Shown piece by piece: positions 33,001 through 36,000 of a DNA stretch of 64,000 bases. Every line of letters begins with the position of its first letter. The stretch's first letter is position 1. Made by a program: the position numbers. Source of the stretch: Macrostomum lignano (taxonomy: Eukaryota); contig NIVC01001295.1 in NCBI GenBank assembly GCA_002269645.1, positions 67,285 to 131,284 of the forward strand. The letters are read 5' to 3'.

Positions 33001-36000
33001 TTTTAACATTTTCAGATAGGCGTTAAACATTAGGAAAAGAAATTTAAGAATGGCTTGGCTTTGCAGTACCTTTTAATAGAAATACGAGTAAGTTGTTTCT
33101 AAGTTGGGTCTAAGTTTTAAAGTGACCTAATACAATCACGACTCAGATGTGGCTCAGTGGACGCTGCTAGTGGCTCTGAATCATTAATTTTTAGTTTCGA
33201 CATCGTCAAGGCAAGAGCTGCTCTACAAACAACTTATATTCAATAATTCAAATGTCACGATTGCATGGTCCGACCGGGCGTAGCTTGGTTGGGTGTTAAA
33301 CCAGTGGGGCGTCGCTCTTGTGCGTTGGTACGGGGGGTGGTGGGCCTGGCCTTGGTCACGTGCCCGCGGCCTGGGTGGCGTTTATTTAATACGGTGCGGG
33401 CTGTCGCTGACCCGCCAAGCGCGTATTGATTTTTTTTCTCAATTTTTGCAATGGCTGACCGCGACAAACTTATGCACCTGAGCAAGGTGGCTCTGCTAGC
33501 CTTGTGTGCCAACGCTAACATAAGCAGTCGGGGCAACAAGGCCGACCTTGTCAGCGCCCTGCTCGCAGCCCCAGACCAGTCGTGGACAGATTCGCTGTTG
33601 CAGAACATGGAGCAATCTGAGCAAGAAGCCGAAGCAGACGACAACATCAGTACGGAGGCGGCTCGGGAGTCGGCGGCGGGCCTGGACGAGGACATCGCGA
33701 AGGCGGAGAAGGAGATCAGACTGTTGCAGCTACGCAAGGAAGCCGCTCAACTCAAGAGGGAGATCGGAGATCTGCAGCGCGAGTGTCCATCCACGCGTCC
33801 TATGAATCGCGGTGAGTGTGCCAAGCCTGCTGGCCCCAGTTACTTTCCTGATGGGTGTGATGATGCTGAATTAGACCAAGCAGATAATGGCAATGAGCTG
33901 CTTGACAGATTGTTGTCACAGAACAGGGCCAATGAACGGATGGAGTGTTCTGGTAGACGTAAGGCTCTCCTGGTTCGTGATTTCCTCGACGGCTTTGAGC
34001 AGGAAGAGGTGCTGGCTAATGGTTCTGGTGGCCGAATCACTTACAAGAGCAGAAAACCTAATCCAGATAGCATCACGGCAGCGCAGTATTTGGTAGGCAA
34101 TTGCAGGCTGATGATGCAGATGATCAAGGATGGTGCCCTGGTGACTAGTAGAAATGGAACTGCCGACACGACTGATTTGATGAATTACTTACGCTACTCA
34201 ATACAGATTGGCGAGCTGTTTGACGCGGGCTTCGGCCTTGCGCAGGTGAATCGTTTTGACGAGGACTACCGCACTAGGCAAGCTGAAACTGGCATGCGAT
34301 GGGGCAAGGAGTCTTTCCAACTCGTTGCTAAGCACTTAATCAGAACTGGAACTCCAGCAAACCATGGAGTCAGCAAGTCATTGCCCCAGCCACGGCAGCA
34401 GCGTTTTCAAAAACCAATAGACCCCAAGAGCCTCAGAACGCCAGACGGGGAAGAGATCTGCTTGCACTTTAATCGCCGGGGGTGCTTCCGGTCGAGCTGC
34501 AAATTCCGGCACGTATGCCGCATCTGTTTCGAGGCCCACCCTGAGGCCAACCATTCGACAAAAAACTGAAGTCTGCGATGCTCTGTTTTAATCCTAAAAT
34601 TTTGCCTAATGCTCAGCCTGCTTTAAATTTTAACAATCCTGTCGTTGGCAGTGCAGGGGGTCGCCTGCGTTTTTGTTCGTGGGATTCTGAGCTTGAGAAT
34701 GACCCTGATCGGAATTTTATCCTAGACGGCATCGCAAATGGTTTTCGCATTACTGATGGCAAAGGGCTTTGTGAGACTTTTAATGCCAATTACATGTCTA
34801 CTTCTGCTTTTCATCGCGCTGTTGAGCTGCAAATTAAAGAAGAGATTGAGAATGGCAGGTATTTGATTGTGCCTAAGAAGCCTACGATGGTCAGCCCTCT
34901 GGGAGCAATTCCCAAGGATAACGGGAAGGTTCGACTTATTCATGACTGCAGCACGCCTCCGGGCTACTCGGTAAATGACAACTATACGAAGAAGCTGAGC
35001 CCCAGGTTTGAGTCCGTCAAGAAGGTTGCTGCCTCTATCGGCAAGGGCTGGTTCATGGCAAAGCTTGATTTGTCGCAAGCTTACAGAAGCGTGGCGATCC
35101 ATCCGGATGATTACCAGGCGACCGGCATTGGTTGGCGCTTTAAAGGCAACCGTGATCTGACATGGCTTGTCGACACCCGGCTACCCTTTGGTAGCTGCGC
35201 CTCGGTCGAGATTTTCTACCGGCTTAGTCAAGCGGTCAAGAGGATGATGGTGCGACGCGGCGTGGCCAATATTTCGGTTTACATGTTGAAACAATGTCAC
35301 GATTGCAAACTATTCATCAATTTCCATCGGCAAACCGAAATAATGAAAATCAAACTTGAAGATTTGCTTTCGGGAAAACAATTTCTTTATTTGAACGTCT
35401 TTCTTTCTAGCACGCGCTGTCATCGCTTCGTTTTCTTCCTTTCGTTTTAGAATTAGCGCGCCCTGTGACGCTGACTTTTACCATCCTGACAGCGTATTTT
35501 GTTGTTGTTGTTGTCGTTTTAGAATGCTTATTTTGGGCAGTAGTTTGGTGGTTGTTCTTCCTCCTAAAGCAAAATATTGGCTAATTTTCAGTATATTCTT
35601 CAACCAGAAAAAGGCTGCTTCTAAAGCGTAAAAATTCGTCTGAAACGTTTACCCAGGAGCGGATTTAGGGGGGGCGGGGGGGACGGCCCCCCCCCCCCCC
35701 CAAAATAGCTTGACAGAACATATTGCGCCCCCCAAAAACCTGAGTTTGCGCCCCCTAAACTTGATTTTTCGCCCCCAAAAGACATTTTTTGTCGCCCCTA
35801 AGCTTGACTTTTCGCCCCATACACGCATTTTTGACGCCCCTAGCTTAAAAATTGGCGCCTCTTATACTCGTGTTGGCGCCCCAAACTTGGACCACCCCCC
35901 CCCCAAAATGAAAATCTAGATCCGCCACTGCGTTTACCCTTTGGGCTTTTATTCTAATGAAGCGATCGTTTCTATTTTCTACACCCAAGCCAGCCTCACC

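What the first reader, a model, noticed from the sequence alone, without database searches (positions are those of the whole stretch)
33251..35307. DIRS/Ngaro fragment inserted with a perfect 15-bp target-site duplication
Seen: a 2027-bp insert with an intact gag and an RT cut just before YxDD, flanked by AATGTCACGATTGCA. The unduplicated target is visible at 18365 in the paralogous spacer. Known: tyrosine-recombinase retrotransposons normally make no TSD, while LINE TPRT gives TSDs of this size but usually with 5' truncation and a 3' tail. Here the 3' part is missing and there is no tail. Inference: trans-mobilisation of a DIRS RNA or cDNA by LINE machinery, or capture at a staggered break. 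It leaves a stand-alone gag ~1.1 kb upstream of copy 3.
Basis: partly seen in the sequence, partly recalled or inferred. Interest (0 to 1): 0.7.

Follow-up and report, generated by a model that had tools for sequence, protein, structure and literature searches.

The report
Truncated Ngaro retroelement with 15-bp duplication
A 2-kb front piece of a tyrosine-recombinase (Ngaro-type) retrotransposon sits in a flatworm-like genome between two perfect copies of a 15-base stretch of its target, so it was probably inserted by a LINE-type nick-and-copy event and not by the element's own recombinase.

Summary
The 15-mer is exact at 33251-33265 and 35293-35307 and occurs once at 18365-18379, where the paralogous spacer runs straight through it. 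The 2027-bp insert has a 185-nt leader, an intact 372-aa gag and the first 235 codons of pol.

Its closest proteins are from Macrostomum lignano, at 98% identity. Domain order in relatives (RT, RNase H, recombinase, no methyltransferase gap) and split direct repeats in relative L005 place the family in Ngaro.

Pol similarity stops at the Tyr of YxDD. The last 7-10 nt are of unknown origin.

The mechanism is not proven. Best reading (0.42): target-primed reverse transcription at LINE-type staggered nicks, primed inside the Ngaro RNA and run to its 5' end, like mammalian "tailless retropseudogenes". A LINE family with APE endonuclease, (GTT)n tails, 9-12-bp duplications and a twin-priming-like inversion lies in the same window.

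Rivals are cDNA capture at a staggered break, and replicative template switching. Full-length family DNA could not be reached. This is a single, modestly interesting case.

The parts
33251..33265 (.). left copy of the 15-bp target-site duplication
   Evidence: Exact match. End of the left flank alignment to the paralogous spacer. Not extendable.
33266..35292 (+). 2027-bp insert: 5' part of a Ngaro-type tyrosine-recombinase retrotransposon
   Evidence: Absent from the paralogous spacer. Proteins 98% identical to Macrostomum lignano gag and RT models. No other copy in the window.
33266..33450 (+). 185-nt leader upstream of gag, possibly the A1 repeat region of the element
   Evidence: 59% G+C. 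No Rfam match. Fold no better than shuffles, z -0.73. No second copy in the window. By analogy, relative L005 has its A1 repeat starting 230 nt before the gag ATG.
33451..34569 (+). gag-like ORF1, 372 aa, intact (0 breaks)
   Evidence: 366/372 identical to P0121. Homologous to the gag part of gag-pol relative P0080 (E 3e-25) and to ORF1 of L005 (E 1e-9). Weak SAP match (E 0.071). CCCH finger aligned with that of relatives.
34578..35282 (+). pol ORF, N-terminal 235 codons only. Broken once, by loss of everything 3' of this point: rest of RT, RNase H, recombinase and 3' repeats. No stop or frameshift in the retained part.
   Evidence: RVT_1 E 2e-5. 183/187 identical to P0001. Relatives continue with [L/I/M]DD in 57 of 60. 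No internal stops.
35283..35292 (.). 7-10 nt of unknown origin between the last family-like codon and the right repeat copy
   Evidence: Does not encode the family's motif. The exact 10-mer occurs nowhere else in the window.
35293..35307 (.). right copy of the 15-bp target-site duplication
18365..18379 (.). unduplicated target (empty site) in the paralogous spacer
35270..35280 (+). 11-mer at the very end of the element-derived part, exactly reverse-complementary to 35332-35342
   Evidence: In the null, 7 of 20000 random pairs reach 11.
35332..35342 (+). target-flank 11-mer complementary to the element RNA just before the cut, 25-35 nt right of the repeat copy; also present in the empty site at 18404-18414
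35454..35513 (+). 60-bp 3' end of a LINE with a (GTT)n tail, flanked by 12-bp direct repeats at 35442-35453 and 35514-35525; context for LINE activity at this spot
   Evidence: Also present in the paralogous spacer, so older than the duplication.
31717..32346 (-). first long ORF of the neighbouring four-copy gene (copy at 31092-32523). It starts 920 bp from the insert, in divergent orientation.
   Evidence: Weak PAN_1 match, E 0.0036.

Best explanation
A young, dead-on-arrival retrocopy of a Ngaro RNA, made by target-primed reverse transcription at a LINE-type pair of staggered nicks.

Inferred steps:
1. The bottom strand was nicked at the left edge of the 15-mer.
2. Its freed 3' end primed cDNA synthesis inside the Ngaro RNA, in the RT-coding region and not at a 3' tail.
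3. Synthesis ran to, or near, the RNA's 5' end.
4. The top strand was nicked 15 nt downstream, and fill-in duplicated the 15-mer.

The RT could be that of the resident LINE family. The Ngaro RT cannot be excluded.

An 11-nt complementarity exists between the RNA just before the cut and the top strand 25-35 nt from the nick. It may have tethered the RNA at the opened target.

Shown: the insertion, its exact 15-bp duplication, what the insert contains, its lack of any tail, and LINE activity at the same spot. Inferred: every mechanistic step.

The result cannot move. It has no recombinase, no complete RT and no 3' repeats. It does leave an intact gag ORF with its own leader 0.9-1.1 kb upstream of a host gene copy.
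For: (1) A perfect, non-extendable 15-bp duplication with an empty paralogous site. The element's own recombinase route is described as giving none (PMC3266345).

(2) The insert starts in the short leader, 185 nt before gag. In relative L005 the A1 repeat starts 230 nt before gag. An RNA or cDNA end predicts such a boundary. A random 2-kb piece of a roughly 5-kb element would start in that stretch only a few percent of the time (inference).

(3) It is 3'-truncated, tailless, 5'-complete-looking and duplication-flanked. This is the anatomy of L1 "tailless retropseudogenes" attributed to internal priming (PMC5322556, abstract and passages).

(4) The same window holds a LINE family with APE endonuclease and RT. 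The exact 19-nt tail motif occurs at 5 sites, and a sixth site matches with 3 mismatches.
- A 60-bp copy with a 12-bp duplication lies 146 bp from the right repeat copy.
- A copy at 49194-49692 has its upstream piece inverted next to its 3' piece, flanked by 9-12-bp repeats. This is the pattern of twin priming, that is, priming at an internal RNA site.

(5) The 11-nt exact complementarity ends 2 nt before the last family-like codon. Only 7 of 20000 random 40-mer x 60-mer pairs from the window reach that length.
Against: - There is no LINE tail or LINE sequence in the insert. LINEs with specific microsatellite tails are usually thought to need their own 3' end (recalled, not tested).
- The 7-10 extra nt at the 3' junction are unexplained.
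- The start of the 15-mer shows no visible complementarity to what the family encodes after the cut, unlike the mammalian tailless cases.
- With only two LINE insertion sites of known duplication, no nick-site motif could be derived for comparison.
- The 11-mer signal was found post hoc. 65 of 2017 insert 11-mers match somewhere in the window by chance, so only its position is unusual. After about 8 implicit comparisons it is roughly p = 0.003.
- Whether 33266 is the RNA's or the element's true 5' end is unknown.
- This is a single case.
Confidence: 0.42

Rival explanations
1. Capture of an extrachromosomal, partial Ngaro cDNA by end joining at a break with 15-nt staggered ends. Fill-in of the overhangs gives the duplication. 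No reverse transcription occurs at the target.
For: DIRS-order elements produce free, mostly linear single-stranded cDNA (PMC7192593, abstract and passages). Insertion of linear fragments at breaks is known in yeast (PMC1976456, search listing and start of abstract only; Ty1 cDNA capture is recalled, not read). The 7-10 nt of filler at one junction is typical of end joining. A cDNA complete at its 3' end would also explain a start in the leader.
Against: A 15-nt stagger is unusual for a spontaneous break and is most simply made by a LINE-type endonuclease, which blurs the line with the best explanation. The cDNA would have to have lost its whole 5' half. Nothing is lost from the target, whereas end joining often deletes bases. 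The 11-nt complementarity has no role in this model.
Confidence: 0.25
2. Replication-based template switching (FoSTeS/MMBIR type). A nascent strand left the spacer, copied about 2 kb from a genomic Ngaro copy and returned 15 nt behind its point of departure.
For: It gives an insertion flanked by a short duplication without any endonuclease, tolerates a few extra bases at a junction, and needs no tail (established model, recalled).
Against: It predicts arbitrary end points, yet the insert starts in the short leader just upstream of gag. No donor copy lies in the window. Microhomology at the switches cannot be read without the donor. The 11-mer is in the wrong orientation to guide a return to the observed junction (reasoned).
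Confidence: 0.12
3. The direct repeat is not a target duplication. The 15-mer, or part of it, belongs to the element or to a circular form of it, which entered by recombinase-mediated or homologous exchange with an identical target stretch.
For: Tyrosine recombinases leave the shared core on both sides of what they integrate. DIRS elements are thought to use a 3-nt identity (PMC7192593 and PMC3266345 passages).
Against: The 15-mer is continuous with both flanks in the empty site. The relative P0001 and 57 of 60 relatives encode something else after the cut. None of the 120 listed hits (of 159 below E 0.001) covers the junction peptide. A 15-nt chance identity is about 1e-9 per site. The fragment lacks the 3' repeats that form the normal circle junction.
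Confidence: 0.03
4. Assembly artefact: a chimeric read or a mis-join placed a Ngaro piece in the spacer.
For: The genome it resembles is repeat-rich, and the junctions could not be checked against reads.
Against: A mis-join does not create an exact, non-extendable 15-bp duplication of the target with otherwise collinear flanks (1 and 0 mismatches in 200 nt on each side). No N or gap lies nearby.
Confidence: 0.05

Closest known systems
Ngaro superfamily of tyrosine-recombinase retrotransposons (DIRS order)
   Same: gag-like ORF followed by RT. The close relative P0001 continues RT, thumb, RNase H, recombinase SAM-like domain with no room for a methyltransferase. Relative L005 (42% RT identity) has A1-[gag, RT/RH, YR]-B1-A2-B2, the Ngaro layout described in PMC8547959. 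Its gag is homologous to the window's.
   Different: Only the 5' 2 kb is present: no RNase H, recombinase or 3' repeats. It is flanked by a 15-bp duplication, which the family's own integration does not make.
Tailless retropseudogenes made by L1 through internal priming (Noll et al. 2015, PMC5322556)
   Same: Duplication-flanked, 5'-complete-looking, 3'-truncated, no tail.
   Different: Those are mammalian or lizard L1 products, mostly of small RNAs, with A-rich priming sites and target complementarity at the breakpoint. Here the genome is flatworm-like, the resident LINE has a (GTT)n tail, the template is another retrotransposon, 7-10 extra nt sit at the junction, and the complementarity lies 25-35 nt away on the other strand.
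Retroelement cDNA or linear DNA captured at double-strand breaks (yeast Ty1; PMC1976456)
   Same: A truncated retroelement piece with filler bases at a junction, independent of the element's integrase or recombinase.
   Different: Such captures usually lack a clean 15-bp target duplication and often delete target bases (recalled). Here the target is intact.
L1 twin priming
   Same: The LINE copy at 49194-49692 shows the inverted-5'/direct-3' layout with flanking repeats. It shows that a target 3' end can prime inside an RNA in this genome.
   Different: The Ngaro insert itself has no inversion. The name and mechanism are recalled. Only an abstract mentioning twin priming was seen (listing).

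Membership tests
Ngaro (DIRS-order YR retrotransposon) | Reverse transcriptase related to those of the YR retroelements | tested here: met
   RVT_1 E 2e-5, below Pfam's cut-off because the domain is truncated. 98% identity to P0001, whose full RVT_1 scores 62.6 bits. 223 relatives at E<=1e-3.
Ngaro (DIRS-order YR retrotransposon) | Tyrosine recombinase encoded by the element | tested here: not met
   Absent from the fragment itself. Present in the family: Phage_int_SAM_4 in P0001 (E 5e-5), Phage_integrase in P0086 (E 0.0016), SAM-like domain in L005 ORF3 (E 6e-5). All are below Pfam's cut-offs. The fragment is a piece of a member, not a complete member.
Ngaro (DIRS-order YR retrotransposon) | Order gag, RT/RNase H, YR with no methyltransferase domain (separates Ngaro from DIRS1-like and PAT; PMC3266345) | tested here: met
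   In relatives only. P0001 has RT 143-318, thumb 354-394 and YR SAM 577-644. In P0080 and P0086, RNase H ends near residue 990 and the YR SAM-like match in P0080 starts near 1030. L005 has three ORFs in that order. No methyltransferase family was reported, but no dedicated profile of the DIRS methyltransferase was run.
Ngaro (DIRS-order YR retrotransposon) | Split direct repeats A1-[ORFs]-B1A2B2 | tested here: inconclusive
   Not testable on the fragment, which has no 3' part. Its leader has no second copy in the window. Found in 1 of 5 relative loci self-compared: L005, with A 422-589/4633-4800 and B 4365-4455/4886-4976. L001 and L007 show other repeat layouts. L002 and L008 show only short tandem repeats.
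Ngaro (DIRS-order YR retrotransposon) | Integration without target-site duplication | tested here: not met
   An exact 15-bp duplication. This is the anomaly.
LINE-mediated tailless retrocopy (internal-priming TPRT) | Target-site duplication in the LINE size range | tested here: met
   15 bp here. The resident LINE family gives 12 bp and 9-12 bp at the two sites where flanks could be read.
LINE-mediated tailless retrocopy (internal-priming TPRT) | 3' truncation without an A or microsatellite tail | tested here: met
LINE-mediated tailless retrocopy (internal-priming TPRT) | 5' end equals the 5' end of the source RNA | not testable with these tools
   No transcript data and no full-length family DNA. 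There is only the analogy with L005's leader length.
LINE-mediated tailless retrocopy (internal-priming TPRT) | Complementarity between the target at the nick and the source RNA at the breakpoint | tested here: inconclusive
   None is visible at the nick itself, judged from what P0001 encodes after the cut. An 11-nt complementarity lies 25-35 nt away on the top strand.
LINE-mediated tailless retrocopy (internal-priming TPRT) | Nick-site motif of the driving LINE endonuclease | tested here: inconclusive
   Only two LINE insertions with readable duplications, so no motif can be derived. No duplication was found for the long copy.
End-joining capture at a double-strand break | Filler bases or microhomology at junctions, often with target loss, usually no long duplication | tested here: inconclusive
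   Filler of 7-10 nt at one junction, but no target loss and a clean 15-bp duplication.

The most novel reading that the evidence does not exclude
Ngaro-type elements, or their RNAs, have a second, recombinase-independent way into the genome. The RNA pairs with target DNA opened at a nick and is reverse-transcribed in place, by a LINE RT or by the element's own RT. This gives duplication-flanked, 3'-truncated copies that seed stand-alone gag genes next to host genes. It would be cross-class mobilisation between two retrotransposon orders, and a tailless-retrocopy pathway outside amniote L1.
Probability: 0.12. Interest if true: 0.65.

Novelty: new member of a known kind. Interest (0 to 1): 0.35.

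Why it matters
Tyrosine-recombinase retrotransposons are defined partly by leaving no target duplication. A clean 15-bp duplication around a fragment of one, with the empty site preserved 15 kb away, records an insertion by some other machinery.

If further cases exist in this genome, three things would follow. LINE-type nick-and-copy events could be shown to act on RNAs of another retrotransposon order. Tailless retrocopies would not be restricted to mammalian and lizard L1. And there would be a simple route by which intact gag genes become separated from their elements, the raw material of gag domestication.

As a single locus it mainly serves as a pointer for a genome-wide survey. In the paper searches run, no paper was found on DIRS or Ngaro elements in Macrostomum, or on LINE-mediated insertion of tyrosine-recombinase elements. 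The supplements of the papers read were closed and may hold relevant element tables.

Tried and rejected
- The leader's first bases as a tRNA primer-binding-like site or structured RNA: ARAGORN found 0 tRNAs in the window. Rfam gave 0 matches at E<=1 in 32800-35800. The leader folds no better than shuffles (z -0.73). Dropped.
- A DNA transposon carrying the fragment: no terminal inverted repeat among the 7 inverted pairs found, and 15 bp fits no fixed-length class I know (the class sizes are recalled). Dropped.
- Other copies or solo repeats of the element in the window: none by tblastn or by blastn with word size 7.
- Source of the 10-nt junction stretch: no other exact copy. The last 23 nt of the insert resemble 9804-9826 at 20/23 (E 0.38). 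Treated as chance.
- Duplication of the long LINE copy (tail end 30683): best shared word only 7 nt. The 5' limit of the LINE copy at 38.9 kb could not be fixed.
- Whether other proteins share the read-through junction peptide: none of the 120 listed hits (of 159 below E 0.001) covers more than 78% of the 290-aa ORF or exceeds 52% identity.
- The exact gag sequence is not in the protein collection.
- Full-length DNA of the same family was out of reach. It returned 12 loci in MAG contigs at 30-53% identity, apparently host-animal DNA binned with symbionts.
- One search failed on a syntax rule for search terms and was re-sent without that term.
- Models in which the 11-mer guides a microhomology join (single-strand annealing, snap-back, MMBIR return) were worked through on paper. 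Each predicts an inverted or displaced junction that is not observed. Only the RNA-tether version fits the geometry.
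Full report
1. The observation. The 15-mer AATGTCACGATTGCA is found exactly three times in the window at up to two mismatches: 33251-33265, 35293-35307 and 18365-18379. None of 100 shuffles gave three matches. A self-comparison of the window gives 16294-18379 ~ 31177-33265 (96.2%) and 18365-19178 ~ 35293-36113 (98.2%). On the 18-kb side the two alignments overlap by exactly the 15-mer (sequences). The spacer at 18 kb is therefore an empty site, and 33266-35292 (2027 bp) is an insertion flanked by a target duplication. 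The repeat cannot be extended by one base on either side. The 200 nt next to the site differ from the paralog at 1 position (left) and 0 positions (right). The window has no N. Read support could not be examined.

2. What the insert is. It has a 185-nt leader (59% G+C) and an intact 372-aa ORF1 at 33451-34569. After an 8-nt gap, ORF2 starts at 34578 and stays open through the junction to 35450. ORF2 matches RVT_1 over profile positions 1-153 of 205 (E 2e-5, below the Pfam cut-off, as expected for a cut domain). It weakly matches Ty3 and foamy-virus RTs among solved structures (E 0.008-0.04).

The nearest proteins are Macrostomum lignano models:
- P0001 (663 aa), 183/187 identical over the RT part.
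- P0121 (372 aa, BOX15_Mlig026183g2), 366/372 identical to ORF1 with the same length.
- A chimeric model, P0122.
The window therefore most likely comes from that flatworm or a very close relative. The exact gag sequence is not in the collection.

ORF1 is a genuine gag of this element group. It aligns with the N-terminal part of the gag-pol model P0080 (E 3e-25, including the CCCH finger) and with ORF1 of locus L005 (E 1e-9).

3. Which family. P0001 continues RT (143-318), thumb, an RNase H-like stretch and then a phage-integrase SAM-like domain (577-644). P0080 and P0086 have SAP, RT, RNase H and integrase matches in that order. The integrase matches are all below Pfam's cut-offs. No space is left for a methyltransferase between RNase H and the recombinase.

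According to the passages read in PMC3266345, DIRS1-like and PAT elements carry a methyltransferase, and Ngaro and Viper do not. PMC8547959 describes Ngaro as A1-[ORFs]-B1A2B2.

A scan of genome contigs returned 12 related loci, all in MAG contigs, at 30-53% identity. Of five that were self-compared, one has exactly this layout. L005 has A at 422-589 and 4633-4800 and B at 4365-4455 and 4886-4976, around three ORFs: gag with a CCCH finger, RT/RNase H, and a recombinase. L001 and L007 show other repeat patterns. L002 and L008 show only short tandem repeats.

The insert is thus the 5' part of a Ngaro-type element. gag has no break. pol is broken once, by loss of everything 3' of the retained 235 codons. 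There is no RNase H, recombinase or 3' repeat. The fragment cannot move by itself.

4. The right junction. Among 60 aligned relatives, 57 have Y-[L/I/M]-D-D where the window has Y-M-L-K (44 LDD, 11 IDD, 2 MDD). The other three have L-LDD, F-LDD and Y-LYD. P0001 reads ISVY-LDDF. Family-like coding therefore ends at the Tyr codon, or at the following Met codon. The 7-10 nt up to 35292 are of unknown origin, and the exact 10-mer occurs nowhere else in the window.

None of the 120 listed hits (of 159 below E 0.001) covers the read-through peptide. The maximum is 78% coverage and 52% identity. This is weak evidence that the 15-mer is not part of the element. The strong evidence is its continuity with both flanks in the empty site.

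5. An unexplained detail. The 11-mer at 35270-35280, which ends 2 nt before the last family-like codon, is exactly reverse-complementary to 35332-35342. That site lies 25-35 nt to the right of the repeat copy and is also present in the empty site at 18404-18414.
- Only 7 of 20000 random 40-mer x 60-mer pairs from the window reach an inverted exact match of 11 or more.
- 65 of 2017 insert 11-mers match somewhere in the window, so only the position is unusual.
- The search was post hoc. Allowing for about eight configurations it is near p = 0.003.
- No match longer than 5 nt was found in the other comparisons of insert ends with flanks.

6. Context: LINE activity at this spot.
- A LINE family ending in ...GCGTATTTT(GTT)nGT has five exact tail matches in the window, and a sixth site matches with 3 mismatches.
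- RT-bearing 5'-truncated copies lie near 28.7-30.7 kb and 38.9-40.0 kb (348-aa ORF, RVT_1 E 7e-11).
- An APE-type endonuclease (Exo_endo_phos_2, E 5e-18) and an RT N-terminal part lie at 21650-23385.
- A 60-bp 3' fragment (35454-35513) lies 146 bp to the right of the Ngaro insert's right repeat copy, between identical 12-mers. The same fragment is in the paralogous spacer with one mismatch, so it predates the duplication.
- The copy at 49194-49692, on the minus strand, has its upstream piece inverted next to its 3' piece and is flanked by 9-12-bp repeats. This is the layout attributed to twin priming in L1 (recalled).
The genome thus has LINE machinery that makes staggered nicks of this order and can prime inside an RNA.

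7. Mechanism. The element's own route (circular intermediate, recombinase) is described as leaving no duplication, and the fragment lacks the parts needed for it. The most economical reading is target-primed reverse transcription at a staggered pair of nicks. The bottom-strand 3' end primed inside the Ngaro RNA and synthesis reached the RNA's 5' end.

This anatomy is that of the "tailless retropseudogenes" of mammalian L1: duplication, a 5'-complete look, 3' truncation and no tail (PMC5322556, abstract and passages).

The start of the insert in the short leader fits an end defined by an RNA or cDNA. It is 185 nt before gag, against 230 nt for the A1 start in L005. A random piece of the element would start there only a few percent of the time (inference).

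The 11-nt complementarity would fit if the RNA paired with the top strand exposed after the first nick, placing the priming site just 3' of the paired stretch. Every other microhomology model I worked through predicts an inverted or shifted junction.

Against this reading:
- There is no LINE tail.
- There are 7-10 unexplained bases.
- There is no complementarity at the nick itself.
- No usable nick-site motif could be derived, from only two sites.
- The true 5' end is unknown.
I put this reading at 0.42.

8. Rivals.
- End-joining capture of a partial free cDNA at a staggered break, 0.25. DIRS-1 makes linear single-stranded cDNA (PMC7192593), and filler fits. A clean 15-nt stagger with no target loss does not fit well.
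- Replicative template switching from a genomic copy, 0.12. It needs no nuclease, but predicts arbitrary ends.
- The 15-mer as part of the element, 0.03.
- Assembly artefact, 0.05.
Which RT acted, LINE or Ngaro, cannot be told from the sequence.

9. Consequences and novelty. The insert leaves an intact gag with its leader 920 bp from the start codon (32346) of the divergently oriented copy of a four-copy gene. That gene's copies lie at 9812-11252, 16293-17637, 31092-32523 and 40428-41874. Its 209-aa ORF has a weak PAN_1 match.

At 98% identity to other copies the insertion is young. The open frames therefore say nothing about selection.

No paper on DIRS or Ngaro elements in Macrostomum, or on LINE-mediated insertion of tyrosine-recombinase elements, was found in the searches. 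Supplements were closed.

It is one more member of a known kind of event (a non-canonical, duplication-flanked retrocopy) with an unusual template. It has moderate interest as a lead for a census, not as a finding in itself.

Noticed in passing
window 35454-35513 (repeats 35442-35453 / 35514-35525); paralog 18526-18585: A 60-bp 3' end of a LINE with a (GTT)n tail, flanked by identical 12-mers. It is present in both paralogous spacers, so it is older than the duplication.
   Followed up: yes
window 49176-49706, minus strand: A LINE copy whose upstream piece (49538-49692) is inverted relative to its 3' piece (49194-49461), flanked by 9-12-bp direct repeats. The layout is twin-priming-like.
   Followed up: partly
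window 29115-29993: An 879-bp insert present in the LINE copy at 28.7-30.7 kb but not in its duplicate at 39338-39343. It is flanked by a 5-6-bp repeat and has 6-bp inverted ends. It looks like a small TIR DNA transposon and splits that copy's RT ORF once.
   Followed up: partly
window 21650-25046: APE-type endonuclease (Exo_endo_phos_2) and the N-terminal RT part of a LINE at 21650-23385, followed by a piggyBac-like transposase ORF (DDE_Tnp_1_7, E 3.5e-51) at 23973-25046. The transposon may lie nested in the LINE, whose RT C-terminal half reappears at 28689; continuity was not verified.
   Followed up: partly
window 9812-11252, 16293-17637, 31092-32523, 40428-41874 (minus strand): Four copies (88-96% identical) of a gene with a 209-aa first ORF that starts like a signal peptide and weakly matches PAN_1 (E 0.0036). 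The unit LINE piece + gene + spacer is tandemly duplicated.
   Followed up: partly
window 43400-45000 and 53980-55000; also 3800-4600, 12870-13500: Long tandem arrays with periods of 8/12 nt, 10/12/22 nt, 45 nt and 31 nt. The 44-46 kb stretch has strong GC skew of -0.37.
   Followed up: no
loci L001-L009 (MAG contigs attributed to bacteria): Ngaro-like retroelements with gag, RT/RNase H and recombinase sit in contigs binned as bacterial symbiont genomes (Sedimenticola, Thiodiazotropha, Flammeovirgaceae and others). They are most likely host-animal DNA mis-binned into the MAGs.
   Followed up: partly
window 46450-47085, minus strand: An ORF with a Dis3-like cold-shock domain match (OB_Dis3, E 3e-7), probably an exon of a host exoribonuclease gene.
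   Followed up: no
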